A stretch of 64,000 bases of DNA from Eubacteriales bacterium. Its GTDB lineage: Bacteria; Bacillota; Clostridia; Oscillospirales; CAG-272. The stretch spans positions 5 to 64,004 of the forward strand of contig JAZOWT010000087.1 in the NCBI GenBank assembly GCA_045659365.1, read 5' to 3'. The position numbers and the translations under genes were made by a program. The notes under the pieces were generated by a model. The model made no database searches. It was not told where the DNA came from and worked only from the letters and a program-made list of their open reading frames with translations. Below are positions 21,387 to 44,711 of this stretch, one piece after another. The first letter of the stretch is position 1; the number at the start of each line of letters is the position of its first letter.

Positions 21387-21426
21387 ATAATACGTGCACC
21401 TGCGTGTATAATGTCTATTAAAATCA

Positions 21427-21455: not shown

Positions 21456-21564
21456 CAAGAAAATGTGAGCGGCAGGCTGTATAAAACGGGCAGATGATGA
21501 AAAAAATAGAAATGCACCAAAATTTGAAATGCCGTCACTTATGGCGGCGGATGGGAGATAATTA

Positions 21565-29312: not shown

Positions 29313-29322
29313 ACGAGGCTAT

Positions 29323-30429: not shown

Positions 30430-30446
30430 TAATATAAAAAAACAAA

Positions 30447-30476
30447 AGAAAAAGCTCCGTGATGGAGCTTTTTCTT
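30447..30476. terminator. Terminator between convergent genes
   Basis: AGCTCC (30453-30458) pairs with GGAGCT (30464-30469), extended by A-run/T-run pairing. Confidence 0.6.
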
Positions 30477-30491
30477 GTATTTACTGGAGTT

Positions 30492-31373
30492 TTAGTCGTT
30501 TTTGACGTGCACGTCGAGCTGGTTGTAGGGGATCTCGATACCGTTCTTATCGAACTCTGCTTTAACGCTTTCAAGAACGTCGAAGTACACAGTCCAATAA
30601 TCAGCGCTATTTACCCAGACTCTTGCGGCAATGTCGATCGAGCTTGAGTTGTGTGTGGATACGCGTACGGTTGTAGCCTTATCCTTGAGTGTAAGCTCGT
30701 GCGAAGCAAATACCTCGTTTATGATTGCCTTTGCCTTTTCAAAATCGTTGTTGTAGCTGATCGAGAAGGTGAAGTCAACACGGCGAAGATCGTTTTCGGA
30801 GTAGTTTACAATATTGCCGTTAGCAAGCGCACCGTTGGGGATATAAACCACCTTGTTATCGGGAGTGAATATTCTCGTATTGGTGAGACGGATATCCTGG
30901 ACGGTACCGCTATATCCCTGCGCCTCGATGTAGTCATCGATCTTGAAGGGTCTGGTGATAATAATGAGAAGTCCGCCGGCGATATTCGAAACCGCGCCGT
31001 TAACAGCAAGACCGAGGCAGACACCAAGGGAAGCGATAAGAGCGGTGATGGCGCTGGTATCAATACCAAGGTAGCCAATAAGACAAACGAGAACAATACT
31101 CTTTGCGCCTATCCTTACAAGGTAAGCAAGAGTCTTCATTATCGTTTTGTCACGTTTGGGAAGCTCGCCGCTGCGCTGAATTCTTTTCGCGATAACGTTT
31201 ATTATCTTAAACGAAATGAACAGCACAATAAGAGCTATAATAACCTTTATTCCGGTGGTAAGAACCCAGTTAACAACGTTGTTAAGAAGCTTTGACCAGT
31301 CTATTGACACGTCGGGTACAACTGTTTCAACCTCTGTGGTGCCTGCATCAGCAGTAAGAAGCATTTTGTACAT
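30492..31373 (-). CDS. Small-conductance mechanosensitive channel (MscS family)
   Basis: Three N-terminal TM segments, then the MscS beta-domain pattern FKIDDYIEAQGYSGTVQDIRLTNTRIFTPDNKVVYIPNG. Confidence 0.85.
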   Translation of the reverse strand: MYKMLLTADAGTTEVETVVPDVSIDWSKLLNNVVNWVLTTGIKVIIALIVLFISFKIINVIAKRIQRSGELPKRDKTIMKTLAYLVRIGAKSIVLVCLIGYLGIDTSAITALIASLGVCLGLAVNGAVSNIAGGLLIIITRPFKIDDYIEAQGYSGTVQDIRLTNTRIFTPDNKVVYIPNGALANGNIVNYSENDLRRVDFTFSISYNNDFEKAKAIINEVFASHELTLKDKATTVRVSTHNSSSIDIAARVWVNSADYWTVYFDVLESVKAEFDKNGIEIPYNQLDVHVKND

Positions 31374-31440
31374 ATTACTTTGATTTATCCTTTCTTTTAA
31401 TATAAATAGATTATATCACTGTATCGATAATTTGTCAATA

Positions 31441-31470
31441 AAAAAGTCGGAGCACCGAAGTGCTCCGACT
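31441..31470 (-). terminator. Rho-independent terminator closing the 13-kb operon
   Basis: GTCGGAGCAC (31446-31455), loop CGAA, GTGCTCCGAC (31460-31469). A T-run follows on the minus strand. Confidence 0.8.
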
Positions 31471-31483
31471 GAAAAATGTTTTT

Positions 31484-32536
31484 TTATCCTACAAGACCGG
31501 AACGCTCAATACCCTGTACAAGGTACTTCTGACAGAACAGGTACATAATTACAAGCGGGAATATGATCATTATTGCCGCGGTATTACGGATAGCTGTCTC
31601 GTACAGCGATCTACCTGCAAAGTTTTCATAGGTAAGTGAGGGAGGGATCTTGCTGAGCAGGTCGGGCATAAGATACATCTTATTTCTACTGATCATGAAG
31701 AAGATCTGAGTGTAGAAGTTATCCGTCCACTGCCAGGAGAAGGAGAAGAGGAAGATCGTGATCATCATAGGTACGGAAAGAGGAATGATGATCGAGAAGA
31801 AGGTTCGGAAGGTGCCCGAGCCGTCAACGTAAGCGGACTCCTCAAGCTCATCGGGAACGCCCTTGAAGAACTGACGCATAAGGTATATGTAAAGTCCGTT
31901 CTTAAAGGCAAGACCGAAGATGGAAAGTATGATAAGCGGCCAGAACGTGTTAGACAAGTCGAGCTGAGCGCCATCAAGGATGATATCCATAATTCCACGG
32001 TAGCTCCAAGCATTGACCTTAAGGAAGTCAAAGTCGGTGAAGTGCTGAATAAGTGACATTCTCATTGTTCTATGAGGAATTACCATCGTAAGGACAACGG
32101 CTGCCATCAAGATCTTATTACCCTTGAACTTGAACTTTGCAAGTCCGTAACCGATAAGGCAGGCGATAAGAGTCTGAATAATAGCACAGAACAGGGAGAG
32201 GAGCGCGGTGTTAAGAAGCGCTTCGAAATATCTGTTCTCTGTTATCATGTACTTATAGATATCAATAGTGAAATGCTTAGGGATAATTGCAACGGTTGCG
32301 TCAACAACGTCTTCCTTGCTCATGAAGGATCCGGCAATCTTAGTTACGAAGGGGAAAATGATTACGTAGGAAACGCCAAGCATGAGTATAAAACGGAACA
32401 GGTTAATGACAGCCTTGATCCAGGTGTTAGAAGCCTTAAGCTTCTGCTTCATTCTTTCCTGCAGAGAGAGCTTGCCTTCGTAATCAACGCGGATCTTATT
32501 TTTGGTTTCTTTAGTTACTGTAGTTTTAGAATCCAT
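31484..32536 (-). CDS. CUT1 carbohydrate ABC transporter permease (MalG/LplC-like), second pair
   Basis: EAA loop EESAYVDGSGTFRTFFSIIIP, six TM segments and a ~40-aa basic N-terminal extension. AAGGAGG RBS. Confidence 0.85.
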   Translation of the reverse strand: MDSKTTVTKETKNKIRVDYEGKLSLQERMKQKLKASNTWIKAVINLFRFILMLGVSYVIIFPFVTKIAGSFMSKEDVVDATVAIIPKHFTIDIYKYMITENRYFEALLNTALLSLFCAIIQTLIACLIGYGLAKFKFKGNKILMAAVVLTMVIPHRTMRMSLIQHFTDFDFLKVNAWSYRGIMDIILDGAQLDLSNTFWPLIILSIFGLAFKNGLYIYLMRQFFKGVPDELEESAYVDGSGTFRTFFSIIIPLSVPMMITIFLFSFSWQWTDNFYTQIFFMISRNKMYLMPDLLSKIPPSLTYENFAGRSLYETAIRNTAAIMIIFPLVIMYLFCQKYLVQGIERSGLVG

Positions 32537-32548
32537 GTTGACACCTCC

Positions 32549-33487
32549 TTAATCTCTTCTCTGATAGAATATGAACGACGATGCCACAGCTGCAACGACA
32601 ACAATTATCAGTACAACTATTATGAAGTAAATCCAGGACATCGCAATAGACGATTCGGCATTAACCGTAGCGATATAAGACATAACCGTATTGGTGTCAC
32701 GGGTGAACGCGTCTATAATCGTATATGCGGCATTTACAAGAATCATGGGAGAGATCATCGGGAAGGTTATCTTCCAGAAGGTTTCCCAACCGGTTGCACC
32801 GTCGATGGTACAAGCCTCGTAAATTGCAGGAGAGATAGACTGAAGACCCGCAAGGAATATAAGCATCTGTACACCGGAGTAGTTAATGATGTTATAAATA
32901 TCATTAACCAGACCTACAACGCTTGTTACAATTTCCGATCCGAAGCCCAGCTCGGCAAACATCTCCTGAATATCCATTACGGATACGATATCGTTTGCAG
33001 AGGAGCCGGAACCGTCATCGATACCGCCGGACATAATATTCTGCATAGCGTCGGATGCGTTGATCGTTTCCATAATACCGGTTGCGATAATAACGGGAAC
33101 GAAGAAGATCGCACGGAACGCTGCTCTACCAAGCATCTTCTGGTTAAGAACAACTGCAATAAACAGAGAGAATATGATAACCGCGGGAACCTCAAGCACG
33201 AGCTGCTGAAGTCCGGCAAGAAGTGCGGTAACGAAGTCGGGAGTATCGAATGCGTCCTTGTAGAACTCAAGGCCAACAAACTCGATAACGGTGGTGGGCA
33301 TACCGTTTACCATAGGTCCGTCGATCTCACGGTTAAAGGAGAACCAGATCGAGTCGAGAAGGATGGGAAGGTAAACAAGGAATATACCGAGAATAAAGGG
33401 GAGAGTGAAGAGGTAGCCTGCGCGAGCTCTTCTAGCGTCGAGCGATTTTCTTCTTCTAGGAAGCTTAAGAGAAATTTTCTTATCCAT
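32549..33487 (-). CDS. CUT1 carbohydrate ABC transporter permease (MalF/LplB-like), second pair
   Basis: EAA loop YEACTIDGATGWETFWKITFP. AAGGAGGAG RBS. Confidence 0.85.
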   Translation of the reverse strand: MDKKISLKLPRRRKSLDARRARAGYLFTLPFILGIFLVYLPILLDSIWFSFNREIDGPMVNGMPTTVIEFVGLEFYKDAFDTPDFVTALLAGLQQLVLEVPAVIIFSLFIAVVLNQKMLGRAAFRAIFFVPVIIATGIMETINASDAMQNIMSGGIDDGSGSSANDIVSVMDIQEMFAELGFGSEIVTSVVGLVNDIYNIINYSGVQMLIFLAGLQSISPAIYEACTIDGATGWETFWKITFPMISPMILVNAAYTIIDAFTRDTNTVMSYIATVNAESSIAMSWIYFIIVVLIIVVVAAVASSFIFYQRRD

Positions 33488-33506: not shown

Positions 33507-36500
33507 TTAAATTTTCTTATATTCGTACTTGCCAAGGGTATAAACCTGGCCGTCAATACGAACATTTACAGTGTAGATATTGTAGTTAAGAATGAAGCGA
33601 ACAACACTATCACCCTTCTGGTAGGTAACGATTGCTACCTTGCCGTTGTCAAGAGTGTACTCGGTTGTTGTGTAAACGCTGTCATCCTCAAGACAATCGG
33701 AGAGTGTGTAGAAGCAATAGTTAGATGCATAGTTATCCATAGCACCGATGTTAACGTCAACATTGAGAGCCTCGGTTTCGGAGCCGGGATACTGAGTGGT
33801 GTAGGACTCAATAAGAACTGCGAGCTTAGTAGTGAAAGAATCCTGGTTAAAGACGGACTCAAGATCCTGCTCGGAGAACTGCTTGCCTACAGCATCGTTC
33901 TTGAACTGATTAACGATAGCATCGATATCAAATACTACTCTTACTCTCTCGTCGTACTTGCCCTCTGCCTTAAGCTGTGCGAAGGTTGCATTGATCTTAG
34001 CAACAATGTCAGCCTCAAGGAACTCGAGGTACTCTTTCTCAAGAGCATTGTAGTCGGAGCGCTTTTCACCCTCTTCTCTGCTACGCTCTACGATTACGGT
34101 CTTGTGATCTACGATCTCGTAATCCTGGAGAGAACCGATCTGAGTGTTAAGCTCGTGATAGGTCTTGAGCATATCAGCATACCATGCGTCATAGTTAACA
34201 CCGTAGTACTTGTTGAGCAGCTCATCCTCCTTCATGTAGGAGGTATTCTGATAACAAAGAATGAAGTAAGGTGAGGCACCGTTCTCGATAGAACGAAGGA
34301 TCTCGTAGTCGATAGAGCCGCTGTAGTTGATGGGGCTGCCAGCGTAGTTAACGTGGCCGTGAAGGATCATACCAACGAAGGGTACTGCATAAGACGAGAA
34401 CTGGAAATGGCTGGAGTCAGTAGCAACGTTGAGAATGTGCTCAGCGTACTTAACTGTGTAGATATTTCCGGCATCGAGCATAAGGCTGTATCCGTCGGTG
34501 TTGGCGATTCTGTCAAGAAGCGCGATAACGTCTGCTCTTGCCTGGTCACGGTTAATGGAGTTATCCTTATCGAAGTTGGAGTTGATGTCAGAGCCAAGGG
34601 TAGATGCGGAGAGGTTCTTGATATCGTACTTGGAGTAGTCTTCATGGAAGTCGGAGTAAAGAGAATCAAGTGCATCGGAGGAGATAACGAGAGTGAAGAA
34701 GTTTTCATACTTCTGAAGCACTGCGTTGTACGTCTGCTTGGACGCGTAACGGTTATCAACCATTCGGGATGCGGTATTTCCCTTTCTTATACCGTCGAAC
34801 GCCGAGGTGTTCGTGATATACATGAAGTCGAATTCAGGATATACAGAGAAGTTGATACCCTCCTCTGCAGATACAGAGTTGGTGGTTGCAACAAGATCTC
34901 TAAAGCCATCTTTACCACCGCACTTACGCTCCCACTTTACCTTGGAGGGGTAGGTGTAATACATACCGTCGTTAGCAAAGCCGGTAAGACGGTAGTTGAT
35001 GTTCTTGATGTCACTGATCTTGGTGAGAAGATCCTCATACTCTGCTGCCTGACGGCGGTAGAGCTCCTTATCGGACTCCTCCTCTGCCGCCTCTACGTTA
35101 GCATAGCACTCGTCAATGAGGCTCTGCACGTGCTCGGTAGCATTTGCAAGCTCGTTGTACATAGTTACTACGTCTTCAAAGGTGGTAAGAGGAATGGTAG
35201 TTTCAACAGGGAAAGTAAGGACCTTCTTGAGTATGCTCATAGTACCGAACGTTTCGAGATAAAGAGGAATGTTGCCCTCGCTCATAATCTCAAGCGCACC
35301 GAGAGTTCCATCGGCCTTAAGATAGTTACGGTAGTAGGAAGCCATACCTGCATAGGTAGTGTTGTAGTAGTTGCCGGCGCCATAAAGAGTCGTACCAACG
35401 TTGTCATCAACAAGCATGGTGTATCTGGTTATGTAAGAGCCGGTGTACTTAGACTCGGAAACTATGGTGTAGGTACCGAGAGAACCAACCGAGAGAGTCT
35501 TGGAAAGGTCATACTCGTCGGAGGGATAGGGAGAATAGGATGCGAATACGTTAACAAACTTGTGAGAGGAACCACCGGACGAGAAGTTAAGCTGTGCAAG
35601 AGTTGCACCCTCCTCAAGGATCGCAAAGTAACCGGTCTCGGTCTTTGCACCGGAGGTGGAGCCTGATGCAGCAAGCATATCCGCAGTGGTCTGGTTAGTG
35701 TTAAGCTGAGTTACGAGGCCGTATACGGGCATGGTGATCTGCTGACGGTGTGCACCGGTGATGGTGGAGTAGCAGTAGTCATGGCCGAAAACTTCTGCGT
35801 AAAGGGAGAGGTTGATCTTCTTACCGGTTGCTTCACTGTAGAAGTCGTCGAAGCTGATAACGGTACCGCTACCATCGGGGAAGAAGAAGAAACCGTCCTC
35901 GGACATATCACCGCAACCAAAATACTGGAGGGGAGTTATGTTCTCGAGAGTGTAAACCGTTTCATCAAAAGAAACGGAGTTTGCGGGAAGACGCACACTG
36001 AGAGAGCCATCCTCGTTGAAGGTGTACTCAAGAGCACATCTGAGAACGAGCTTCTGCTCCTCGCTGTGGACGTATCCACACTCTTCCTCATCATCGTACA
36101 TGTCGATGATGTCGTATTCAGGACAAAGAGTCTTGATATAGTTGGAATACTGCTTCTTGATAGAGTTATCAACGGTCATATCGAATACGTATACTGCAGT
36201 GCCGTTTGCGGTGATGGGAAACTGCTTGTTGATAGTAGCAAGAGTCTCCGGATCATCAGCGTACATTGCGGGATCCTTAAGCGAATATGCGTTGGAAAGA
36301 AGCATTATGGGTTTGATGTAGTTGTCGTACAGCTGCTTATTGCTGGTGTAGGTCTGTACCTCAGTGATATAGCCCTGGAGCTTAGTAAACTCGATATAAC
36401 CCTTGTTTTCGATATCGTCATATCTACTGCCTACAAAATCAAATGCGGAATTAGGCTCAACCTCCTCAAACTTATCACCGAGCGCCTCAAGCATGGGAAG

Positions 36501-37100
36501 AATGATGTCGTTGGTGAAATCCTCAGCGGTAATGATACCGGGGAGAAGATATCTTGTTGAGGTATCACCGAGTGTGTAGTTAACACGAAGGCCACCTGCA
36601 ATCTCGGTTACGCTGATCTGACCGTACATAGATGCCCAGTGAACACTGTTGTAGTTGAACTGGTTAGACGAAACGGAGGTCTCGTACATCTTGATGCTGA
36701 TCTGGCTCATGATCTCCTCAGCGAGGTTGCCGGTAATGTTGGTGTATGCGGGATTTACCGGGTTACTGGTGAGGATCTGGCCGGAAAAATTGTTGCGGTA
36801 GTAGAGGAAACCGGTGTAACGGTTTACATATATGGTGTAAAGTCCGTCAACGCTGGTGGAGTGGTCAAGGTAACCAGCCTCAAGCTCGTATGCGAGCATT
36901 TCCTCTGCAGTGTCGAAGTTGTACTTAAGATACACATCTGAGATGTATGTCTTTATCTCGTCGAGAGTCATCGTTGCCTCCGATACGGAGGTGGAGGGGG
37001 AGTAAGCCGCCTCCGCCTCAGTCGCGGGAATCACAACGGAAACCGCCGTGAAAAGCAATACAAGCACCAAAGCAGTCGATAATATTCTTTTAATTTTCAT
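33507..37100 (-). CDS. 1197-aa secreted or membrane-anchored protein of unknown function
   Basis: Signal peptide MKIKRILSTALVLVLLFTAVSVVIPATEAEA and an AGGAGG RBS. I recognise no catalytic motif. From memory it may correspond to DUF5696-type proteins; unverified. Confidence 0.8.
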   Translation of the reverse strand: MKIKRILSTALVLVLLFTAVSVVIPATEAEAAYSPSTSVSEATMTLDEIKTYISDVYLKYNFDTAEEMLAYELEAGYLDHSTSVDGLYTIYVNRYTGFLYYRNNFSGQILTSNPVNPAYTNITGNLAEEIMSQISIKMYETSVSSNQFNYNSVHWASMYGQISVTEIAGGLRVNYTLGDTSTRYLLPGIITAEDFTNDIILPMLEALGDKFEEVEPNSAFDFVGSRYDDIENKGYIEFTKLQGYITEVQTYTSNKQLYDNYIKPIMLLSNAYSLKDPAMYADDPETLATINKQFPITANGTAVYVFDMTVDNSIKKQYSNYIKTLCPEYDIIDMYDDEEECGYVHSEEQKLVLRCALEYTFNEDGSLSVRLPANSVSFDETVYTLENITPLQYFGCGDMSEDGFFFFPDGSGTVISFDDFYSEATGKKINLSLYAEVFGHDYCYSTITGAHRQQITMPVYGLVTQLNTNQTTADMLAASGSTSGAKTETGYFAILEEGATLAQLNFSSGGSSHKFVNVFASYSPYPSDEYDLSKTLSVGSLGTYTIVSESKYTGSYITRYTMLVDDNVGTTLYGAGNYYNTTYAGMASYYRNYLKADGTLGALEIMSEGNIPLYLETFGTMSILKKVLTFPVETTIPLTTFEDVVTMYNELANATEHVQSLIDECYANVEAAEEESDKELYRRQAAEYEDLLTKISDIKNINYRLTGFANDGMYYTYPSKVKWERKCGGKDGFRDLVATTNSVSAEEGINFSVYPEFDFMYITNTSAFDGIRKGNTASRMVDNRYASKQTYNAVLQKYENFFTLVISSDALDSLYSDFHEDYSKYDIKNLSASTLGSDINSNFDKDNSINRDQARADVIALLDRIANTDGYSLMLDAGNIYTVKYAEHILNVATDSSHFQFSSYAVPFVGMILHGHVNYAGSPINYSGSIDYEILRSIENGASPYFILCYQNTSYMKEDELLNKYYGVNYDAWYADMLKTYHELNTQIGSLQDYEIVDHKTVIVERSREEGEKRSDYNALEKEYLEFLEADIVAKINATFAQLKAEGKYDERVRVVFDIDAIVNQFKNDAVGKQFSEQDLESVFNQDSFTTKLAVLIESYTTQYPGSETEALNVDVNIGAMDNYASNYCFYTLSDCLEDDSVYTTTEYTLDNGKVAIVTYQKGDSVVRFILNYNIYTVNVRIDGQVYTLGKYEYKKI

Positions 37101-37117: not shown

Positions 37118-39292
37118 TTAAACTCTGTTTCCGATTTCCGTGAAAATCGAAATTACGAAGGTAACCATCTTGGCAACAAGGCTGAAGAAGAGTACTGCGA
37201 TGAACGCGATAACAAGCATAGCAACGATTGTACCGAAAATAGTTACGATGTTCTTTTTAAGTGAGTAGTCATGAGTTACGAGAGTACCGAAGTACAGAAG
37301 GATACCAACCCATACATAACCTATGGTTGTGATAAGGGTGATCATCGACTGGGAGCTCGTGGTCATGAAGTTGGTGAGTACGGTGGATGCAACAAGGAAG
37401 ATCGGAAGGGGTGCGAGGGAGTAACCAACCGCGATGTAGATATCCTTGAAGCTACCTTCACCCTCGAAGAGGGTTGTAAGACACCAGTTAGATACTACGA
37501 AGAGGAAGAGGATCAAGCATACAACCGCGATTACGGCGAGAATGTTAACCGTTTCTCCTCTGGGGTTAAACGCGTAGCCTTCACCTATCGACTGATAGAA
37601 GAATGCAAGGATAGTGATTGCGATAATGGTAGATGCTGCCTTTACCGAGCCGCGCTTCTCGTGCTTCAAATCCCAGAAGCCGTCGAAGGGGTGGAATACA
37701 AGGTGGAATGAGAACAGAAGCTCTTCCCAATAGGTCTTCTTGCCGACCTTGAGGGCGGTTGCCTTGTTCTTCTTCTTTGCATATCCGAGGAACTTTGCAA
37801 CAAGAACGAGGGCCACGATTGCAAGGATGATGATAGGCAGGAGCCACTTGGAAACGATGTCCTTGTTTGCTGCTGCATGTGCATCAGACCAAACCTTGGT
37901 TTCATACGCGCTCTCGAGATATTCCATCGCGTCAGCGTATTTACCCTGGTTGTAGAGCGCCTTACCTATACCGATATAAGCAAGGTCGAGGTTGTTGTTA
38001 AGGGTAAGAACTCTTTCCCAGCTATCCTGAGCCGAGATGTAATCGTGCTGGTTCTCGTTAGAGAGAGCATGGATAAGTGAGTAGTAGTAATCAGTGGGGT
38101 CATAAACAGTAACCTTAGAGCCGCTGCTTGCAGTATCAAGAGCAACAAGGCGGTAGGTACCGTCAACAACCTGATAGGTTATTGCAGTGAAGGTTGCACC
38201 GTGGCCAAGCTGGTCACCCTTACCGCCAAAGGCGAAGAGGAGGTTACCGTTCTGGTCGTAGGTGAAGAAGCGGGAACGGGACTGGTCAAGAAGAGTCCAA
38301 GTACCCTCTGCACCGAGTGCAACGTCCTTGATCTGAGAAATATCAGCAACGTTAATAACAACTTCTCCACCGGGATCAAAGAAGCCGTTACGGTTCATGA
38401 TCTCCTTACCCTGAGAGTTAAGCTTCTTAACAGGAGAGTAAGTAGCCTTCTTGGTCTTTATAGAGGAGAGCTGATTCTTCTGCTCCTCGGGATCAAGGGG
38501 ATACATAGTGACGTAAACGAATCCGTCGTCGTCAACTGTGATGTTATTGTAGGGGGTAGCAAGCTTAAGCTCCTGAGTAAGACGGTTATCGGCAGACTGG
38601 AACTTAGCCCAGATGATGTCGATAAGGCTGTAGGAAACCTGCTGTGCACCGATGAATCCGGTGAAATCACCGTCACGAGTAAGAACGATTACACCCTCGT
38701 ATGCGGAGGGAGATACGATGAAGATTCGGCCGTAAATATCAACTGCGATCGCAGTGGGGTCGAACGCACCGTCACTAAGTATAGCACTGTCGGGCTTATA
38801 GATAGTTCTTATGTAATTGTACTCGCGGTCGAATACTACGACACGCTTATTACCTGTATCACAGATGTAGATGTAGCTGGAGTTATCGGAGGTCTTGCTT
38901 GCGTCGGTAACGTAAAGACCTGAGGGACTGTTAAAGGTCTGCGCAACGCCGTTCTCGTCAACGTAGCTCTCGATGATTGCGGTTGCTTCGTAGAACTTAT
39001 TGAGAACAACGATACGGTTATTACCCTTGTCGGCGATGTAGAGGTTTGCCTGATCGTCGCAGAAGATATCACTTGCAGTAGCAGAAAGACCTGCAACCGA
39101 GCTAAGCTTGGATATGTTCATATCGATCGAGTCAAAGTCGTCAACTGACGAGTATGCGTGAGGTGACTGAACTACCTCACCGTCGATGGAGTAGGTGTAG
39201 GTATCATAGGGCTCTGCTGCGGAGGAGTAAACGGTGCCGAAAAGCATAACCGCTATGAGTGCCATAATCAATATTTTGGTTATTTTCTTCAT
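37118..39292 (-). CDS. Fusion protein: signal peptide, NHL-repeat beta-propeller, TPR-like segment, TM, Yip1-type polytopic membrane domain
   Basis: NHL-like repeats DKGNNRIVVLNK, DTGNKRVVVFDR and QSRSRFFTYDQNGN. TPR-like GIGKALYNQGKYADAMEYLESAYE. Yip1-like entry FHLVFHPFDGFWDLKHEKRGS followed by 5 TM segments. Confidence 0.75.
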   Translation of the reverse strand: MKKITKILIMALIAVMLFGTVYSSAAEPYDTYTYSIDGEVVQSPHAYSSVDDFDSIDMNISKLSSVAGLSATASDIFCDDQANLYIADKGNNRIVVLNKFYEATAIIESYVDENGVAQTFNSPSGLYVTDASKTSDNSSYIYICDTGNKRVVVFDREYNYIRTIYKPDSAILSDGAFDPTAIAVDIYGRIFIVSPSAYEGVIVLTRDGDFTGFIGAQQVSYSLIDIIWAKFQSADNRLTQELKLATPYNNITVDDDGFVYVTMYPLDPEEQKNQLSSIKTKKATYSPVKKLNSQGKEIMNRNGFFDPGGEVVINVADISQIKDVALGAEGTWTLLDQSRSRFFTYDQNGNLLFAFGGKGDQLGHGATFTAITYQVVDGTYRLVALDTASSGSKVTVYDPTDYYYSLIHALSNENQHDYISAQDSWERVLTLNNNLDLAYIGIGKALYNQGKYADAMEYLESAYETKVWSDAHAAANKDIVSKWLLPIIILAIVALVLVAKFLGYAKKKNKATALKVGKKTYWEELLFSFHLVFHPFDGFWDLKHEKRGSVKAASTIIAITILAFFYQSIGEGYAFNPRGETVNILAVIAVVCLILFLFVVSNWCLTTLFEGEGSFKDIYIAVGYSLAPLPIFLVASTVLTNFMTTSSQSMITLITTIGYVWVGILLYFGTLVTHDYSLKKNIVTIFGTIVAMLVIAFIAVLFFSLVAKMVTFVISIFTEIGNRV

Positions 39293-39304: not shown

Positions 39305-40186
39305 TTAGTCCTTCATACCCGAGGATCCCATCGTTTCAACTATCTGGCTCTGGTTCAGGACGAAGATGAGAATAGGAACTATCATCATGATAACCGTTGC
39401 GGCAGCGCCGGCACCCGAACGTGCGATACCACCGTTAACGATCTGCTGAATAGCGTAGTTGAAGGTTTTAAGCTCCTCTGAGTGGATGTAAATAGATGCA
39501 CCTGTGTTCCAAAGGCCCTTGAAGCACTCGATGATAAGTGTCATCCATGCGGGCTTAACCATGGGCATCGCGATGGTCAGGTAGATTCTGAACTCGCTTG
39601 CACCGTCAAGTCGCGCGGACTCAAGAACGGTATCAGGAACAGATGTTTCCATGAACTGCTTCATAAGGTAAAGACCCATCGTACCTGCCAAGGAAGGAAC
39701 TATGATAGAAAGATAAGTATCGATCCAACCGAAGGAAGAAAGAATGATGAAGTGAGTTACCTGGTTAACAGTAGAGTGGAACATAAGAGACATAACTATG
39801 ATCTGGAAGATAATGTTTCTTCCGGGGAATCTAAGCTTGGAAAGCGAGTAAGCTGCCATCGAAGCGAAGATAAGGTTACCGAGAGTACCGCAAAGAGTAA
39901 TGAATACAGTATTGAATATGTATCTTGAGAAGGGTACCCACGAGTCACCCATAAGGGTTACAAGATCTCTGAAGTTATCAAATGTAGGGCTCTTAACGTA
40001 GAACTTAGGGGGGAACATGAAGAGCTCATCAAGAGGCTTAAGAGACTGAATTACAACGTAGTACATGGGGATGAACATGAACGCGCCCATGAGAATGAGT
40101 ACGAAGGTAATACCGGTATCACCGCCGGCAGAACGGTTAAGGACAACGCGGTGACCGCGTGTTCTGAGCTTTTTCAGTTTTGCCAT
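39305..40186 (-). CDS. CUT1 carbohydrate ABC transporter permease (LplC/MalG-like), first pair
   Basis: EAA loop LESARLDGASEFRIYLTIAMP. I prefer the ATG at 40186 (MAKLKK), 1 nt after the upstream TAA. Confidence 0.85.
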   Translation of the reverse strand: MAKLKKLRTRGHRVVLNRSAGGDTGITFVLILMGAFMFIPMYYVVIQSLKPLDELFMFPPKFYVKSPTFDNFRDLVTLMGDSWVPFSRYIFNTVFITLCGTLGNLIFASMAAYSLSKLRFPGRNIIFQIIVMSLMFHSTVNQVTHFIILSSFGWIDTYLSIIVPSLAGTMGLYLMKQFMETSVPDTVLESARLDGASEFRIYLTIAMPMVKPAWMTLIIECFKGLWNTGASIYIHSEELKTFNYAIQQIVNGGIARSGAGAAATVIMMIVPILIFVLNQSQIVETMGSSGMKD

Positions 40187-40187
40187 A

Positions 40188-41138
40188 TTACTCACCTACC
40201 TTCGCAAGTGCCTTCTTAATAATTATGTTGGAAGAAAGCATGATTATGAAGAGGATAACTGCTATTGCAGAAGCATAACCGATCTCATAACGTGCTCCAC
40301 CATAGTCATCAAGATGGTGCATTATTGTGTGTGCTGCATAATCGACTGAGGGGAATCCGCAAAGCGCGGTAACGACACCACCAAAGCCGAAGGAGTTGGT
40401 GATCGCAAGAACGGCACCGAACATCACCTGAGGACGCATGGTCGGAAGCGTGATGTACCAAAGCTCCTCCCTACGGTTCTTAATTCCGTCAACGGCTGCT
40501 GCCTCGTACATCGAGCGGTCGATGGTCTGGAAGCCCGCGATGAACGACAGGAATGCCGTACCAAGTGAGGTCCAGAGTGCAACCACGATACAAAGACCCA
40601 TTACGTACTTAGCATCCTCGAACCAAAGGATCGGGGTGTTGATAATACCAAGGTCGATAAGAGTTGCGTTTGCCCAACCATAAGAGTCAGAGGAGAACAG
40701 AGTCTTCCAAATAAGGTAAACCTGACCGGAAATGGAGGGAGCGTAGAAGACAAGGGTTACTACGGCACGGATCTTAGGTGGAAGCTCGTTGATGAACCAC
40801 GCGATCAAAAGAGAAAGCAGGTAAGAAACGGGACCGGTAACCGCTGCGAAGATAAGCGTGTTCTGGCACGCGAGGAGGAATATTTCATCCTCCGTGAAAA
40901 GTCGCGTATAGTTTGCAAGGCCCTGCCAGCCGGGCATCTGGAGCATGTTAAAGTCTGTAAAGCTAAGAATGATCGAAAGGAATACAGGGAGAACCGTGAA
41001 AATTATGAAAAGGAGGAAGAAGGGGGCAAGCATAAAGTAAGCTGTCTTGTTCTTTTTCATTTCCTTCCATGTCCACTGAAGCTTCGACATTTCAGAACGC
41101 TTTACAGGACGCTTTGTCGCTGTATTTTCTTGTGACAT
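40188..41138 (-). CDS. CUT1 carbohydrate ABC transporter permease (LplB/MalF-like), first pair
   Basis: EAA loop YEAAAVDGIKNRREELWYITLP. AAAGGAGAA RBS. Confidence 0.85.
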   Translation of the reverse strand: MSQENTATKRPVKRSEMSKLQWTWKEMKKNKTAYFMLAPFFLLFIIFTVLPVFLSIILSFTDFNMLQMPGWQGLANYTRLFTEDEIFLLACQNTLIFAAVTGPVSYLLSLLIAWFINELPPKIRAVVTLVFYAPSISGQVYLIWKTLFSSDSYGWANATLIDLGIINTPILWFEDAKYVMGLCIVVALWTSLGTAFLSFIAGFQTIDRSMYEAAAVDGIKNRREELWYITLPTMRPQVMFGAVLAITNSFGFGGVVTALCGFPSVDYAAHTIMHHLDDYGGARYEIGYASAIAVILFIIMLSSNIIIKKALAKVGE

Positions 41139-41164: not shown

Positions 41165-44100
41165 TTAGTTAGTGGGGTTTCTCTTCTCCGGAGGGATGTA
41201 CTCCTCACCGGTCTGAAGAACGGCTAGACCAAACTCCTGACGCTTACGAGTGATCTCGGAGTTCATCGCATCGATGTACTGGCTGAGAGCCTCAACTGCG
41301 TTAGCGCCGTCATTTACTGTTTCAAGGAAAGCAAACTTCATGTATCTATCCTTAATATAAGAGCCGGGGTAGTTAACGATGGAGGACATGTGCTCCATCT
41401 GGTCTCTGATTGCTGCGTGCTCGCTAGCAGTCCATGAGAGGTAGTCGATTGCATTCTTGTTAGCTGCATTGTACTTTGCAGAGGGACCGATAAGAGCAAC
41501 CATCTTGTTACCGTAGTTACCCTGTACCTTTGCAGAGGTCTGCCACTGGAGGTATGCCCATGCAGCAGCGGTGTTATCACAGCCGTGAAGCATTACGGTA
41601 GCGCTTACGCCGGCAAGAGAGTTGTAGTTGATGATCTCCTTGCCATCCTCGTCGTACTCACCGGTTTCACTTCCGGGCAGCGGGCAGAACTCCCACAAGC
41701 CCTCAATCTCAGTTGCATAAACTGTAAGAGTGTTGTATGTACCAACGTAGTCACCTACAACGATGGGCATCTCACCGGTTCTGAAACGGTTAGGTGCATC
41801 GTAGGATACGGGGAACGAGTAGTCGGTGTAAAGACGGCAAACGAATGCGAACGTATCAAGCGCAACGGTGGAGTCGAGGTCGATTCTGGCACCTGCGTAC
41901 TCAGCGTCATCCTCGTACTTCCAAAGGCTTCCGCCCTTCTGGTAAAGCATGAAGTCGAGTGCTGCAATATAGCTTACACCAACCTGCATGTTGTTAGCCT
42001 GAAGAGTAGGAAGAATGGAGAGAAGGTCAGACCATGTCTCAGGAACCTCCTGACCGAGATCGGCAAGGATGTCCATGCGGTAGAACATCATAGCAAAGCT
42101 CATCTCGGAGGGAACGCCGTATACGATACCGCCAAGCTCGAGAGTATCGGTTGCGGCACTTACGTAGTTATCACCCTGAACCTTATCGAAGGTTTCGGAA
42201 ATGAATGTGAGCTTACCCTTGCTGGGATCAAGTTCGTTGGTGTAAGAATAGGTTTCAGTCTCTTCATCATAATAGATGTAGCTTTCAGTATTGAACACAG
42301 CCTTGGTGGGATCGTTACGGAACGCCTCTACTGCGGGAACGTCGTCATGGGTGCTACCAATACTCATTACCGCGTCACGAATAGCGTAGTTAATAACGTC
42401 AGATGAACCAAGACCCATATATATATCGGGGCCCTTACCTGCAAGGATTGAGGGAAGAAGAGTACCACCGGTAACGAGCTTAAGGTTTACACCGTAGCCC
42501 GTCTGATCGGTAAAGCCTTCCTTCGCGTCAACCATGGTACGCCAGATGTTAGACTGGTCACGACCGGTTGCAAGCCATACGTCAACCGATACGGTGTCTT
42601 CATCAGGCTCAACGGTCAAGCCCATCGCATCGTAATCAATGATGAAAGAATATATGAAAGATCTGATTTCGAACCAAAGTGAGCTGAAGAATCCCGCCTT
42701 TGCCTTCGGGAGATCGTCACTGCTGGTATCGGAGGGAACGATAGAAATGCTATCTACGATAAGAGTTCCCTTCTTGGAGTTGTTGATCCAAGTACCGAGC
42801 GTACCGAGGTACGATTTAAGGTTAGACATATTAGCGGCAACGTCGTCACCGTTATTCTGACCCATTTTATTGAGAAGGATAGCGATAGTTTCAAGTGTAG
42901 CTACGTGAGAACCGTTGGTTCCGCAAAGCTCGATAAGCTCTGCCTGAACGTCCATAAGCTCCTTCGACTGATTGATAAGGTTTACAAGAACCTCAGGAAT
43001 GATAGCGAAGAACTGGTAGTCACGGTATTCGTCAGGAGAAGAGCCGGTAAGCTGAAGAATGGTAAGATAGCTCTCGTTTACAGAGCTAAGAACCGCCTCA
43101 ACTCTCTGGATAAGGTTCTTAAGAGAACCGAGAGAGCACTCAAGGTAAAGAGTGTACTCTACGCCCTTTTCGAAGTAGAACTCAAAGGCATCAATGTTTC
43201 CGTCACCAACGTAGTCGGACTGCCAGTTCTTGTCGTAGTTGAACTGTGCACTGTATGCCTCAACGAAGGGAGCGGTGGGAGTTCCGTCTGCAAGACCGTA
43301 AGAACCGCCGGCAAGCTTGATAGCACGACAGATGTACATACCCTGAAGAGCACTCTGCATGTAACGCATGCTGATCTTGTAAAGACCGGTCTCGGTTACG
43401 GTGAACTTATAAGCAGCCCACTGACCTACGGTGTTATAGCTGTTCTCACCTATTACGTTGTAAACCTGCGCATTGGGGTGAGAGGGGTAGGTAGCGGAAG
43501 AAGAGTTGTCGTTGGTCGCGTAAACCGAGGAGTCGGATACGAGATCGGGGAACTCAGCCTGGATGTTGATGATGCTACCGTTGGTTGCAGCGGTATAGCC
43601 CTTGTCCTCATACTCCTTCTTAACCTCATCGTAAGTGGGGAGGTCAATCTCGGTAGAGGTATCTGCCTCAGCACCCTCGTAGCCATAAGGAATGAGCTCG
43701 ATGGCCTTGATGATAACAGGCTCGCGCTCTGCCTCAAGGGTGATCTGGTGAGAACCGTTGAGAAGATAGAAGGTAAAGAAGCCATCATAGTAACCGGTAG
43801 AGTCCTGGCAGTAGTAGGTATTCCAAGAAGGGATAGCCTGTACGTTAGGAAGCATAGAGTTACCGTTGATATCCTCAGTGATGGTGTAGGTCTTTACAGT
43901 CTTAACGCCATCCTTAACGGTAGTAACCACCTTCTGATAGCCTGCATCGGCATCATCATAGTAGCTGACGTTATAGGAGTCTTCTTCATCAGTCTCGGTA
44001 ACCTCTTCGTTAACGTAGGTGAACTCCCACGACTTATCGAAGGTAATGTTACTGGACTCATCAAAGGGAACCGCGCCGTCTATAAGAAGCTTACGCTCGA

Positions 44101-44611
44101 TAGAGCTTATGCTGCTAGGGCTTCCTACGGGCTTCTGATCGTCGCCACTGATGTTACAGCTGTAATACACGATTTTGATGTAGTAGTATCCAGATGCATT
44201 ATCAGGAAGGGTGAATGTCCAGGTGGACTGTCCGGAAGAGGGCAGGTAAACAGAAGAAGAGCCATTCTCTTCCCCGAAGTTATGCCACAAATCAGGATTC
44301 TTGTCCTTCGCTATATCACAGTCCTGGCTAGCATCGGGCGTCTGCGCGCTGCTACCCGGAATGAGATTATTAACGATGTCGACCTTGATGATTTCTGCAT
44401 TGGGATTGGCGATCACCGCGCCATGCTCTTCGAGATACTCGTCGTAGGACGATACACCTACGAGCTGCTTCATCTCCTCAAGTGAGGAAGCGGTGTCGCG
44501 GTTAGTGCCACGGTCGGTATCAGCCGCCATAGCAGTGATCGCAATCACGCCGAAGAGCGTTGTCGCAGAAAGAATCAGACAAAGGACTTTCTGTAACAAT
44601 GATTTTTTCAT
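41165..44611 (-). CDS. Giant (1148-aa) extracellular solute-binding protein: ~640-aa N-terminal extension with two beta-sandwich (CBM-like) modules plus a C-terminal family-1 SBP domain
   Basis: Signal peptide ending TAMAAD. CBM-like strings STWTFTLPDNASGYYYIKIVYY and WAAYKFTVTETGLYKISMRY. SBP part starts around VDVWLATGRDQSNIW...AGKGPDIYMG. Confidence 0.8.
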   Translation of the reverse strand: MKKSLLQKVLCLILSATTLFGVIAITAMAADTDRGTNRDTASSLEEMKQLVGVSSYDEYLEEHGAVIANPNAEIIKVDIVNNLIPGSSAQTPDASQDCDIAKDKNPDLWHNFGEENGSSSVYLPSSGQSTWTFTLPDNASGYYYIKIVYYSCNISGDDQKPVGSPSSISSIERKLLIDGAVPFDESSNITFDKSWEFTYVNEEVTETDEEDSYNVSYYDDADAGYQKVVTTVKDGVKTVKTYTITEDINGNSMLPNVQAIPSWNTYYCQDSTGYYDGFFTFYLLNGSHQITLEAEREPVIIKAIELIPYGYEGAEADTSTEIDLPTYDEVKKEYEDKGYTAATNGSIINIQAEFPDLVSDSSVYATNDNSSSATYPSHPNAQVYNVIGENSYNTVGQWAAYKFTVTETGLYKISMRYMQSALQGMYICRAIKLAGGSYGLADGTPTAPFVEAYSAQFNYDKNWQSDYVGDGNIDAFEFYFEKGVEYTLYLECSLGSLKNLIQRVEAVLSSVNESYLTILQLTGSSPDEYRDYQFFAIIPEVLVNLINQSKELMDVQAELIELCGTNGSHVATLETIAILLNKMGQNNGDDVAANMSNLKSYLGTLGTWINNSKKGTLIVDSISIVPSDTSSDDLPKAKAGFFSSLWFEIRSFIYSFIIDYDAMGLTVEPDEDTVSVDVWLATGRDQSNIWRTMVDAKEGFTDQTGYGVNLKLVTGGTLLPSILAGKGPDIYMGLGSSDVINYAIRDAVMSIGSTHDDVPAVEAFRNDPTKAVFNTESYIYYDEETETYSYTNELDPSKGKLTFISETFDKVQGDNYVSAATDTLELGGIVYGVPSEMSFAMMFYRMDILADLGQEVPETWSDLLSILPTLQANNMQVGVSYIAALDFMLYQKGGSLWKYEDDAEYAGARIDLDSTVALDTFAFVCRLYTDYSFPVSYDAPNRFRTGEMPIVVGDYVGTYNTLTVYATEIEGLWEFCPLPGSETGEYDEDGKEIINYNSLAGVSATVMLHGCDNTAAAWAYLQWQTSAKVQGNYGNKMVALIGPSAKYNAANKNAIDYLSWTASEHAAIRDQMEHMSSIVNYPGSYIKDRYMKFAFLETVNDGANAVEALSQYIDAMNSEITRKRQEFGLAVLQTGEEYIPPEKRNPTN

Positions 44612-44682: not shown

Positions 44683-44711
44683 ATTATATCACACGAAACG
44701 GCAAAAGTCAA
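44683..44711 (-). promoter_or_regulatory. Near-consensus sigma-A promoter of the 13-kb operon
   Basis: On the minus strand: TTGACT (44706-44711), 17-nt spacer, TATAAT (44683-44688). Lies about 70 nt upstream of the SBP ATG (RBS GGAGGAA). Confidence 0.6.

What the first reader, a model, noticed from the sequence alone, without database searches (positions are those of the whole stretch)
37118..39292. Unusual fusion: extracellular NHL beta-propeller and TPR joined to a Yip1-type polytopic membrane domain
Seen in the sequence: a signal peptide, then about 430 aa with NHL-like blades (DKGNNRIVVLNK, DTGNKRVVVFDR, QSRSRFFTYDQNGNLLFAFGG). A TPR-like helix pair follows (GKALYNQGKYADAMEYLESAYE), then a TM helix and a basic loop, then a Yip1-like entry motif (FHPFDGFWDLKHEKRGS) with five TM helices. 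Bacterial Yip1-domain proteins are essentially uncharacterised. Linking one to a ligand-binding propeller inside an ABC importer operon suggests an accessory membrane component, for example substrate hand-over, gating or sensing. That is not part of the canonical ABC importer model.
Basis: partly seen in the sequence, partly recalled or inferred. Interest (0 to 1): 0.6.

Follow-up and report, generated by a model that had tools for sequence, protein, structure and literature searches.

The report
Propeller-Yip1 membrane protein in sugar-uptake cassette
The gene is real and encodes an outward-facing NHL propeller joined to a Yip1-type membrane domain; it is a fixed, unstudied component of a seven-gene sugar-uptake cassette found in many hundreds of gut Clostridia, and it probably organises that transporter rather than being a one-off fusion.

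Summary
The protein has a signal peptide, a six-bladed NHL propeller, a short TPR-like helical region, one tether helix, a basic cytoplasmic loop and a five-helix Yip1 domain. The fusion is not rare. 1,247 cluster representatives (clusters at 50% identity) match at E<=1e-30, and the best 150 are mostly full-length. It occurs at 582 or more loci in species-representative genomes.

It sits in a fixed cassette: giant SBP, two permeases, NHL-Yip1, DUF5696, two permeases. That order held in every locus where the contig allowed it, including loci fetched through DUF5696 (57 of 57). It also held in cultured Paenibacillus and in Lachnospiraceae. Lachnospiraceae carry the protein as two overlapping genes, split in the cytoplasmic loop.

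DUF5696 folds like GH129, GH31 and GH101 glycosidases. It and the giant SBP are secreted but mostly lack lipid anchors. The cytoplasmic loops of the Yip1 domain are the most conserved part of the protein.

Best reading (inferred, about 0.4): a membrane organiser that holds the anchorless extracellular partners and docks onto the transporter, comparable to YknW in the YknWXYZ exporter. No publication on the cassette was found.

The parts
44683..44711 (-). Promoter-like site upstream of the cassette (TTGACT, 17 nt, TATAAT, with a TG extension)
   Evidence: 11 of 12 consensus matches, 72 nt upstream of the SBP start codon. This is a consensus match only.
41165..44611 (-). Giant solute-binding protein, 1148 aa. 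It has a type-I signal peptide and no lipobox, an N-terminal extension of about 690 aa, and a CUT1 SBP domain at residues 692-1030.
   Evidence: Pfam SBP_bac_1 E 1.6e-14. The best solved relative is the Lin1841 sophoro-oligosaccharide SBP, E 8e-27. The extension hits Golvesin_C in 6 of 29 homologues and CBM_35 in 2 of 29. 93 of 104 homologues lack a lipobox.
40188..41138 (-). Permease A (MalF/UgpA-like, 316 aa)
   Evidence: Pfam BPD_transp_1; NCBIfam sub-threshold hits to UgpA and GlcT.
39305..40195 (-). Permease B (MalG/UgpE-like, 296 aa); overlaps permease A by 8 nt
   Evidence: Pfam BPD_transp_1; NCBIfam sub-threshold hits to UgpE and MalG.
37118..39292 (-). The finding: the NHL-TPR-Yip1 protein, 724 aa
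39218..39292 (-). Signal peptide, aa 1-25, ending in the SSA|AE site
   Evidence: Hydrophobic core at 3-27; A25 is invariant in the 32-sequence alignment.
38093..39217 (-). Extracellular six-bladed NHL beta-propeller, aa 26-400, with helical insertions at about 223-242 and 268-280
   Evidence: 54 of the 340 positions at 61-400, plus 9 of 35 at 26-60, are at least 95% identical across 83 sequences.
37889..38092 (-). TPR-like four-helix region, aa 401-468, extracellular and next to the membrane
   Evidence: Pfam TPR_2 24.3 bits, below its cut-off of 27; consensus TPR proteins hit at 416-469; helices at 401-461.
37784..37846 (-). TM1 tether helix, aa 483-503; the least conserved segment of the protein
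   Evidence: mean top-residue frequency 0.48.
37640..37783 (-). Cytoplasmic loop, aa 504-551: a basic stretch followed by the near-invariant HPFDGFWDLKHEKRGS motif. Lachnospiraceae split the gene within this loop.
   Evidence: 11 Lys/Arg. Conservation is 0.92 over 529-551, with 15 of 23 positions at least 95% identical. Split point.
37145..37639 (-). Five-helix Yip1 membrane bundle, aa 552-716. Its cytoplasmic loops (609-617, 673-684) are highly conserved and its outer loops are variable.
   Evidence: Pfam Yip1 530-698.
33507..37100 (-). Secreted DUF5696 protein, 1197 aa, with a glycoside-hydrolase-like fold, a type-I signal peptide and no lipobox or C-terminal anchor
   Evidence: Pfam DUF5696 E 1.3e-111. 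The AlphaFold model has pLDDT 80.6. Foldseek top hits are GH129 NagBb at E 2e-16, then GH31 and GH101. 143 of 149 homologues lack a lipobox. No anchor domains were found in the longest variants.
32549..33487 (-). Permease C (UgpA/MalF-like, 312 aa)
31484..32536 (-). Permease D (MalG/UgpE-like, 350 aa)
31445..31470 (-). Intrinsic-terminator-like hairpin closing the seven-gene unit
   Evidence: 11-bp stem with 7 GC pairs and a T-run, 14 nt after the permease D stop codon.

Best explanation
The NHL-TPR-Yip1 protein is an obligate structural subunit of a conserved seven-gene glycan-uptake cassette of Bacillota: giant SBP, two CUT1 permeases, NHL-Yip1, a secreted glycosidase-like DUF5696 protein, and two more CUT1 permeases. 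Shown: it is co-inherited with all six partners, in fixed order, over deep divergence. It spans the membrane with a conserved ectodomain outside and a still more conserved face inside. Inferred: it acts as a membrane-anchored organiser. Its propeller and TPR region would hold the two large secreted partners at the cell surface next to the translocators, because those partners mostly have cleavable signal peptides and no lipid anchor. Its Yip1 bundle, through the near-invariant cytoplasmic loops, would dock onto the permease pairs or the shared MsmK/UgpC-type ATPase. This would assemble or couple the two importers, much as the Yip1-family protein YknW modulates assembly of the YknXYZ ABC exporter.
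For: 1. Synteny. All 80 genome loci fetched through this protein carry the collinear cassette wherever the contig reaches, down to 43% identity. In 80 metagenome loci fetched through DUF5696 instead, 57 of 57 with room upstream have NHL-Yip1 directly upstream, and 56 of 57 have the second permease pair downstream.
2. The same cassette occurs in cultured Paenibacillus cellulosilyticus, there with a UgpC ATPase gene directly upstream. It also occurs in Butyrivibrio fibrisolvens, Anaerotaenia torta and other Lachnospiraceae.
3. In Lachnospiraceae the protein is two genes, NHL-TPR-TM1 (491-501 aa) and Yip1 (206-213 aa), overlapping by 22 nt. This arrangement is stable over at least 120 sequence clusters. 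The two halves therefore work together, and the cytoplasmic loop is a domain boundary.
4. The genes form one tight unit, with gaps of 12-26 nt or overlaps, strong SD sites, and a promoter-like site and a terminator at the ends.
5. The giant SBP (93 of 104) and DUF5696 (143 of 149) lack a lipobox and a C-terminal anchor, and have conserved AxA cleavage sites. Ordinary SBPs in the Butyrivibrio locus do have lipoboxes.
6. Conservation is highest on the cytoplasmic face: 0.92, 0.90 and 0.75 for the three loops, against 0.48 for TM1 and 0.53-0.66 for the outer Yip1 loops. The ectodomain is also well conserved at 0.64-0.66.
7. NHL propellers and TPRs are established interaction modules.
8. Precedent: YknW is a Yip1-family accessory protein that affects assembly of an ABC transporter (PMC4887032, PMC4338810), and Yip1 proteins accompany ABC genes in bacteriocin clusters (PMC10707071).
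Against: The precedents involve MacB-type exporters, not type I importers, and those Yip1 proteins have no ectodomain. The signal peptides of the SBP and DUF5696 might stay uncleaved and act as anchors. About 10% of the SBPs have a lipobox-like Cys. High conservation of the cytoplasmic motifs may partly be a general structural feature of Yip1 domains rather than a partner interface. The structure model is only moderately confident in the membrane part (pLDDT about 55-80). The substrate is unknown.
Confidence: 0.4

Rival explanations
1. Surface glycan-binding protein. The propeller itself binds the polysaccharide or oligosaccharide substrate and hands it to the DUF5696 enzyme or the SBP, in the way SusE/F-type surface glycan-binding proteins do. 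The Yip1 part would serve only as a membrane anchor.
For: The ectodomain is extracellular and well conserved. The cassette is otherwise glycan-directed: a CUT1 SBP with CBM-like extensions, a GH-like DUF5696, and GH43 neighbours in Lachnospiraceae.
Against: A single TM helix would be enough for an anchor, so this does not explain a five-helix Yip1 domain whose cytoplasmic loops are the most conserved part of the protein. The closest structural matches of this propeller are RNA-binding TRIM71, Brat and Lin41 NHL domains, designed Pizza proteins and a lyase; none is a carbohydrate binder. No CBM signature was found.
Confidence: 0.2
2. Transmembrane regulator or sensor. The ectodomain senses substrate, or the occupancy of the SBP or enzyme. 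The conserved cytoplasmic face then gates the ATPase or the permeases, switching import on or off, without any role in assembly.
For: The protein has conserved surfaces on both sides of the membrane joined by a variable tether. A basic loop and an invariant motif face the cytoplasm. The PknD sensor domain is an extracellular NHL propeller. The 2019 YIPF review proposes a receptor role for prokaryotic Yip1 homologues (PMC6682643).
Against: The protein has no recognisable signalling domain. The Oscillospirales cassette carries no regulator. In Lachnospiraceae a separate histidine kinase and response regulator, or a LacI-type regulator, is already present. This reading overlaps with the best explanation and cannot be separated from it by sequence alone.
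Confidence: 0.15
3. Enzyme. The six-bladed propeller is catalytic, for example a lyase, lactonase or esterase of the SGL or Vgb type, and modifies the substrate before import.
For: The model matches virginiamycin B lyase at E about 1e-8. Some homologues carry precomputed SGL (PF08450) hits. A tblastn hit fell on an SMP-30/gluconolactonase family protein.
Against: These are fold-level resemblances with 8-11% identity. The best matches are non-catalytic NHL domains. No metal-binding or catalytic motif was identified. This reading does not explain the Yip1 domain.
Confidence: 0.08
4. The Yip1 bundle is itself a channel or transporter for a solute linked to the pathway, and the propeller acts as its gate or receptor.
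For: The YIPF review speculates that Yip1 domains may be channels or transporters, given the polar residues in their TM helices and the formation of oligomers (PMC6682643). Polar residues N602, T606 and H674 are conserved at the membrane boundary.
Against: Two complete permease pairs already provide translocation pathways. The conserved residues cluster in the cytoplasmic loops rather than along the helices. No transport activity has been shown for any Yip1 protein, to my knowledge.
Confidence: 0.05
5. The protein has an unrelated function and is merely adjacent to the transporter genes.
For: None beyond the lack of experiments.
Against: Gene order is fixed in every one of about 160 loci where it could be scored, across Oscillospirales, Lachnospiraceae and Paenibacillus.
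Confidence: 0.02

Closest known systems
YknW of Bacillus subtilis/amyloliquefaciens (Yip1-family subunit of the YknWXYZ four-component ABC transporter)
   Same: It is a bacterial Yip1-domain polytopic membrane protein encoded in an operon with ABC transporter genes. It acts as an accessory subunit that modulates complex assembly rather than as a translocator (PMC4887032, PMC4338810).
   Different: YknW partners with a MacB-type exporter plus a membrane-fusion protein; here the partners are type I CUT1 importer permeases. YknW has no extracellular domain. No HlyD or FtsX-type genes are present in this cassette. Sequence relatedness to YknW beyond the shared Pfam family was not tested.
Yip1-family proteins of leaderless and circular bacteriocin clusters (for example BawG)
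   Same: A five-TM Yip1 protein encoded next to ABC transporter components (PMC10707071).
   Different: These are about 220 aa with no ectodomain, sit in an export and immunity context, and have no demonstrated function.
Eukaryotic Yip1/YIPF proteins
   Same: The same Pfam domain (PF04893), with five TM helices, an N-terminal cytoplasmic segment and the C-terminus on the non-cytoplasmic side. They behave as adaptors in hetero-oligomeric membrane complexes (PMC6682643).
   Different: They are ER and Golgi trafficking factors that interact with Rab GTPases. They have no extracytoplasmic domain, are only distantly related, and their molecular function is still debated.
PknD sensor domain (Mycobacterium tuberculosis)
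   Same: An extracellular six-bladed NHL beta-propeller tethered to the membrane by one TM helix; the family profile hits it at E 3.7e-9.
   Different: PknD's cytoplasmic part is a Ser/Thr kinase, whereas here it is a Yip1 bundle with no catalytic domain.
Canonical CUT1 ABC importers (MalEFGK2, UgpBAEC, the Lin1841 sophoro-oligosaccharide system) and Gram-positive polysaccharide utilisation loci
   Same: SBP_bac_1-type binding protein, MalF/MalG-like permease pairs, an ATPase that is often encoded elsewhere and shared, and glycosidase genes nearby.
   Different: The canonical model has one SBP, two permeases and two ATPase subunits, and its SBPs are lipid-anchored in monoderms. This cassette has two permease pairs, one mostly anchorless giant SBP, a giant DUF5696 protein and the NHL-Yip1 protein, all always together.
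Sus-like 'utilisome' complexes of Bacteroidota
   Same: A functional analogy only: glycan-binding, glycan-cleaving and transport components held together at the cell surface.
   Different: The proteins are entirely different (SusC/D TonB-dependent transporters in an outer membrane) and there is no homology. The existence of a complex here is a hypothesis.

Membership tests
Yip1 domain (Pfam PF04893, clan Yip1) | Significant match to the family profile over its full length | tested here: met
   E 1e-13, 52 bits against a 28.6 cut-off, model positions 2-171 of 173 at residues 530-698. PF04893 is precomputed for all 120 listed homologues.
Yip1 domain (Pfam PF04893, clan Yip1) | Five TM helices preceded by a cytoplasmic N-terminal segment, with the C-terminus on the non-cytoplasmic side | tested here: met
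   Hydropathy and the positive-inside rule give five helices at 552-716 after a loop with 11 Lys/Arg. The AlphaFold helices agree. There is no experimental topology.
NHL-repeat six-bladed beta-propeller | NHL repeat sequence signature | tested here: met
   Pfam NHL whole-protein score 27.4 against a cut-off of 20, although no single repeat is significant on its own. The family profile hits Pizza, PknD, TRIM71 and Thin NHL domains at E 2e-17 to 1e-5.
NHL-repeat six-bladed beta-propeller | Six-bladed propeller fold | tested here: met
   Foldseek against the PDB: TRIM71, Lin41, Thin, Brat and Pizza6 at E 7e-13 to 1e-9, with target TM-scores of 0.72-0.80. The propeller region of the model has pLDDT mostly 80-94.
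Tetratricopeptide repeat (TPR) | Match to a TPR profile above threshold; tandem helix pairs | tested here: inconclusive
   TPR_2 scores 24.3 bits against a cut-off of 27. The profile hits consensus TPR proteins at 416-469, but those E-values are inflated by the repetitive targets. The model has four helices at 401-461. At most about two repeats are present.
CUT1 (carbohydrate uptake transporter 1) type I ABC importer, for the operon | SBP_bac_1/8 binding protein plus MalF/MalG-like BPD_transp_1 permease pair | tested here: met
   The operon has two permease pairs and one SBP.
CUT1 (carbohydrate uptake transporter 1) type I ABC importer, for the operon | MsmK/MalK/UgpC-type ATPase | tested here: not met
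   No UgpC-like gene is present in the window or within 10 kb of the cassette in the 80 genome loci. One lies directly upstream in Paenibacillus. Shared ATPases encoded elsewhere are common for CUT1 systems in Firmicutes; this last point is from general knowledge.
YknWXYZ-type four-component exporter | Yip1 protein together with a membrane-fusion protein (HlyD/YknX), a MacB/FtsX-type permease and its ATPase | tested here: not met
   None of the seven cassette proteins matches HlyD, FtsX or MacB families; all four permeases are BPD_transp_1. The protein may work like YknW, but the system is not a member of that family.
Glycoside hydrolase clan with GH129/GH31/GH101-like architecture (for the DUF5696 neighbour) | N-terminal beta-sandwich plus (beta/alpha)8 barrel fold | tested here: met
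   Foldseek: GH129 NagBb at E 2e-16, GH31 at 1e-8, GH101 at 4e-8, all with probability 1.00. The model has pLDDT 80.6.
Glycoside hydrolase clan with GH129/GH31/GH101-like architecture (for the DUF5696 neighbour) | Sequence membership of a CAZy family and identified catalytic nucleophile and acid/base residues | tested here: not met
   There is no sequence hit to any solved GH and no Pfam hit other than DUF5696. Invariant D409, D441, D769 and E939 exist but could not be mapped onto catalytic positions. Enzymatic activity cannot be tested with these tools.
Bacterial lipoprotein SBP (the usual state of SBPs in monoderms) | Lipobox Cys at the end of the signal peptide | tested here: not met
   The window SBP has an AMA|AD site and no lipobox. 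93 of 104 homologues lack one even with a lax pattern, whereas the ordinary SBPs in the Butyrivibrio locus have AAGC and ISGC.

The most novel reading that the evidence does not exclude
The NHL-TPR-Yip1 protein is the organising subunit of an undescribed class of Gram-positive cell-surface glycan machine. In this machine two CUT1 translocators, an anchorless CBM-bearing giant SBP and a new glycosidase family (DUF5696) are held in one supercomplex. A Yip1 domain couples them across the membrane to the ATPase. This would be the first defined molecular role for a prokaryotic Yip1 domain in import, and an addition to the canonical type I ABC importer model.
Probability: 0.25. Interest if true: 0.8.

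Novelty: new variant of a known kind. Interest (0 to 1): 0.62.

Why it matters
The canonical type I ABC importer has no accessory membrane subunit. Here one is co-inherited with the transporter genes in every locus examined where the contig allowed, at 582 or more loci in species-representative genomes. Some carriers are very common gut Lachnospiraceae: one Yip1 variant alone was seen on 606 contigs.

The cassette also contains two large uncharacterised proteins. One is a probable new glycosidase family, DUF5696, which no paper in the searchable library mentions. The other is an SBP with a 600-700 aa extension. Working out the cassette's substrate would therefore fill a gap in how gut Clostridia harvest glycans.

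The molecular role of Yip1 domains is also still debated in eukaryotes. A bacterial family with a fixed, interpretable set of partners, and with cultured hosts (Butyrivibrio fibrisolvens D1, Anaerotaenia torta, Paenibacillus cellulosilyticus KACC 14175), makes that question testable.

Tried and rejected
- The plus-strand reading of the given coordinates has no open frame.
- Sequence searches of DUF5696 against solved structures, as a single sequence and as a profile, gave nothing meaningful. Only the fold search was informative.
- BLASTP of the SBP against DUF5696, to look for shared domains, found none.
- Relaxed Pfam scans of the SBP extension and of the two DUF5696 halves gave nothing usable for the window proteins.
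- Pfam scans of the five longest DUF5696 variants, looking for cell-wall, SLH or sortase anchor domains, found none.
- A search for a UgpC/MsmK-type ATPase in the window and in the locus flanks found none.
- An Rfam scan of the whole window found no regulatory RNA.
- Literature searches for DUF5696, for PF18952, and for Yip1 together with solute-binding protein and glycoside hydrolase found no paper on the cassette.
- The primary YknW paper (PMC3416220) is not held, so YknW facts come from two papers that cite it.
- I considered and rejected the idea that the Butyrivibrio two-gene form is a sequencing frameshift. More than 120 distinct clusters share the 206-213 aa Yip1-only gene with the same 22-nt overlap.
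- I considered DUF5696 as a stand-in binding protein for the second permease pair. This stays open but is weakened, because Lachnospiraceae cassettes carry ordinary lipoprotein SBPs after that pair.
Full report
**1. What is at the coordinates**

The interval 37118-39292 holds one 724-codon ORF on the minus strand. The plus strand is closed by stop codons. The ORF starts five bases after a strong ribosome-binding site, AAAGGAGG.

Pfam gives a full-length Yip1 match at residues 530-698: E 1e-13, 52 bits against a cut-off of 28.6, covering model positions 2-171 of 173. It also gives an NHL match above the whole-protein cut-off, and a TPR_2 match just below its cut-off. A profile built from 32 homologues hits designed and natural NHL propellers (Pizza, PknD sensor domain, TRIM71, Thin) down to E 2e-17. 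It hits consensus TPR proteins at residues 416-469.

The AlphaFold model has a mean pLDDT of 72.7, with the propeller mostly at 80-94. It shows a propeller at 31-399, four helices at 401-461, a long helix containing TM1, and a helical bundle. Foldseek matches the propeller to TRIM71, Lin41, Thin and Brat NHL domains at E about 1e-12, with target TM-scores of 0.75-0.80.

Hydropathy and charge give the following topology:
- signal peptide 1-25, ending SSA|AE
- acidic ectodomain 26-482
- TM1 483-503
- cytoplasmic loop 504-551, with 11 Lys/Arg
- five helices at 552-716
- C-terminus outside

**2. The surroundings**

The gene is the fourth of seven tightly packed minus-strand genes, separated by gaps of 12-26 nt or by overlaps:
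- a 1148-aa solute-binding protein, with its SBP domain only at residues 692-1030
- two CUT1 permeases
- the NHL-Yip1 protein
- a 1197-aa DUF5696 protein
- two more CUT1 permeases

A near-consensus promoter-like site lies upstream of the first gene and a strong hairpin terminator follows the last. The cassette has no ATPase gene, and there is no UgpC-like gene anywhere in the window. The flanking genes are housekeeping: mnmA, a class-V aminotransferase, PolC and mscS.

**3. How common the fusion is, and whether the linkage is real**

The fusion is not rare.
- The word-indexed protein search found 2,788 relatives. The best 120 are all 716-872 aa, nearly all of them full-length, and all carry Yip1.
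- The exhaustive search of cluster representatives (clusters at 50% identity) found 1,247 at E<=1e-30. The top 150 are mostly 690-750 aa and mostly aligned end to end.
- A scan of one genome per species returned at least 582 loci. All listed hosts are uncultured gut Clostridia or Oscillospiraceae.

In the 80 loci kept, tblastn with the seven window proteins shows the same collinear cassette wherever the contig extends far enough, down to 43% identity for this protein.

As an independent test I fetched 80 metagenome loci through DUF5696 instead. Of 57 with room upstream, all 57 have NHL-Yip1 directly upstream. Of 57 with room downstream, 56 have the second permease pair.

The plasmid collection supplied cultured carriers:
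- Paenibacillus cellulosilyticus has UgpC, SBP (986 aa), two permeases, a 719-aa 'YIP1 family protein', DUF5696 and two permeases.
- Butyrivibrio fibrisolvens has a histidine kinase, a response regulator, GH43, SBP (977 aa), two permeases, NHL (498 aa), YIP1 (206 aa), DUF5696, two permeases and two ordinary SBPs.

**4. The split form**

In Butyrivibrio the NHL gene encodes the signal peptide, propeller, TPR and TM1. The next gene overlaps it by 22 nt and begins just before the FHPFDGFWDLK motif. This is not a sequencing error. A search with the 206-aa protein returned 512 relatives, and the best 120 are all 206-223 aa at 65-100% identity, from Butyrivibrio, Anaerotaenia torta and other Lachnospiraceae. 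Two further contexts show the same split inside the same cassette, again preceded by GH43. Fused and split forms of one unit show that the two halves act together. They also mark the cytoplasmic loop as the domain boundary.

**5. The partners**

DUF5696 has no sequence relative among solved structures. Its model (pLDDT 80.6) matches GH129 alpha-N-acetylgalactosaminidase NagBb at E 2e-16, then GH31 and GH101 enzymes. It is therefore glycosidase-like in fold. Residues D409, D441, D769 and E939 are invariant even when the Paenibacillus and Butyrivibrio sequences are included. Catalysis is not shown.

The SBP domain is closest to the Lin1841 sophoro-oligosaccharide-binding protein, at E 8e-27. Its long N-terminal extension hits Golvesin_C or CBM_35 in some homologues.

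Both giants have type-I signal peptides with conserved Ala-X-Ala sites. Even with a lax lipobox pattern, 93 of 104 SBPs and 143 of 149 DUF5696 proteins lack a lipobox, and none has a C-terminal anchor or a known wall-binding domain. The ordinary SBPs of the Butyrivibrio locus, by contrast, have classic lipoboxes. In a monoderm cell an unanchored SBP would diffuse away, so something must retain it.

**6. Where the protein is constrained**

I measured conservation as the mean frequency of the commonest residue across 83 sequences, including Paenibacillus and Butyrivibrio.

| Segment | Side | Conservation |
|---|---|---|
| Cytoplasmic loop 529-551 | in | 0.92 (15 of 23 positions at least 95% identical) |
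| Cytoplasmic loop 609-617 | in | 0.90 |
| Cytoplasmic loop 673-684 | in | 0.75 |
| Outer Yip1 loops | out | 0.53-0.66 |
| TM1 | membrane | 0.48 |
| Propeller and TPR | out | 0.64-0.66 (66 positions at least 95% identical over residues 61-468) |

The protein thus has one conserved surface outside and an even more conserved one inside, joined by a variable tether.

**7. Most likely mechanism**

Shown: this is an obligate, co-inherited component of a seven-gene glycan-uptake cassette.

Inferred, at about 0.4 confidence: it is the cassette's membrane organiser. The propeller and TPR would retain and position the anchorless SBP and the DUF5696 enzyme next to the two translocators. The Yip1 bundle would dock through its cytoplasmic loops onto the permeases or the shared ATPase.

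[quoted passage not shown] Yip1 proteins also recur beside ABC genes in bacteriocin clusters (PMC10707071). This is a functional analogy, not family membership. No MFP or MacB-type genes are present, and the permeases are type I importer components.

The rivals are:
- a surface glycan binder (0.2)
- a transmembrane gate or sensor (0.15), which overlaps with the best reading
- a catalytic propeller (0.08)
- a Yip1 channel, as speculated for prokaryotic homologues in PMC6682643 (0.05)
- chance adjacency (0.02)

**8. Novelty and verdict**

Databases already label the protein 'YIP1 family protein'. However, no paper in the library mentions DUF5696 or PF18952, and none was found that describes the cassette. 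The 2019 YIPF review states that no function is known for prokaryotic Yip1 homologues (PMC6682643).

I rate this a new variant of a known kind: a CUT1 glycan-uptake locus with an undescribed, obligate accessory module. Its claims that the fusion is unusual and that bacterial Yip1 proteins are wholly uncharacterised do not.

Interest is 0.62. The conservation, the abundance in gut Clostridia, the two uncharacterised giant partners and the open question of Yip1 function all make this worth experiments. Cultured hosts exist for doing them.

Noticed in passing
window 33507-37100 (-): The DUF5696 protein (1197 aa, secreted) has no sequence relative among solved structures, but its model matches GH129, GH31 and GH101 glycosidases. 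It is a candidate new glycoside hydrolase family with invariant D409, D441, D769 and E939.
   Followed up: partly
window 41165-44611 (-): The giant SBP carries an N-terminal extension of about 690 aa before the SBP domain. Homologues of 950-1522 aa keep it, and a few hit Golvesin_C or CBM_35. Most lack the lipobox that SBPs of monoderm bacteria normally have.
   Followed up: partly
L081 11989-14084; L163-L166: Lachnospiraceae encode the NHL-TPR-TM1 part and the Yip1 part as two genes overlapping by 22 nt. The cassette there is always preceded by a GH43 gene and followed by one or two ordinary lipoprotein SBPs, with a histidine kinase and response regulator or a LacI-type regulator nearby.
   Followed up: yes
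L082 6098-7207: Only the Paenibacillus cellulosilyticus cassette has a UgpC-type ATPase gene directly upstream. In the Oscillospirales loci the ATPase must be encoded elsewhere.
   Followed up: partly
window 31399-31438 (-) and 30446-30476: The mscS gene (30492-31373) has a perfect consensus promoter, TTGACA, 17 nt, TATAAT, with a TG extension, right after the cassette terminator. A bidirectional terminator hairpin sits between mscS and the converging ABC permease gene.
   Followed up: no
window 26740-30429 (+): A separate CUT2-type sugar ABC system lies next to the cassette: a Peripla_BP_4 binding protein, a tandem ATPase and a BPD_transp_2 permease. The first two ORFs overlap by about 50 nt as listed.
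   Followed up: no
window 18480-21806 (-): A 1108-aa protein is built almost entirely of BspA-type leucine-rich repeats (Pfam LRR_5, E 2.5e-208). It is probably a surface protein.
   Followed up: no
window 54063-58475 (-): A PolC-type DNA polymerase III alpha subunit (PHP, exonuclease and pol III domains) is consistent with a Bacillota origin for the window. The closest cassette relative, at 90% identity, is an uncultured Eubacteriales MAG (L001).
   Followed up: no
L046, L058, L078 (DUF5696 genes): Some DUF5696 homologues reach 1639-1981 aa through C-terminal extensions that match no Pfam family.
   Followed up: partly
L015 (contig CAVEOF010000005.1): One locus is labelled Coriobacteriaceae, yet it is nearly identical in arrangement and in identity to the query (55%) to an Eubacteriales MAG locus (L022). 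This is probably a binning or labelling error rather than a true actinobacterial carrier.
   Followed up: no
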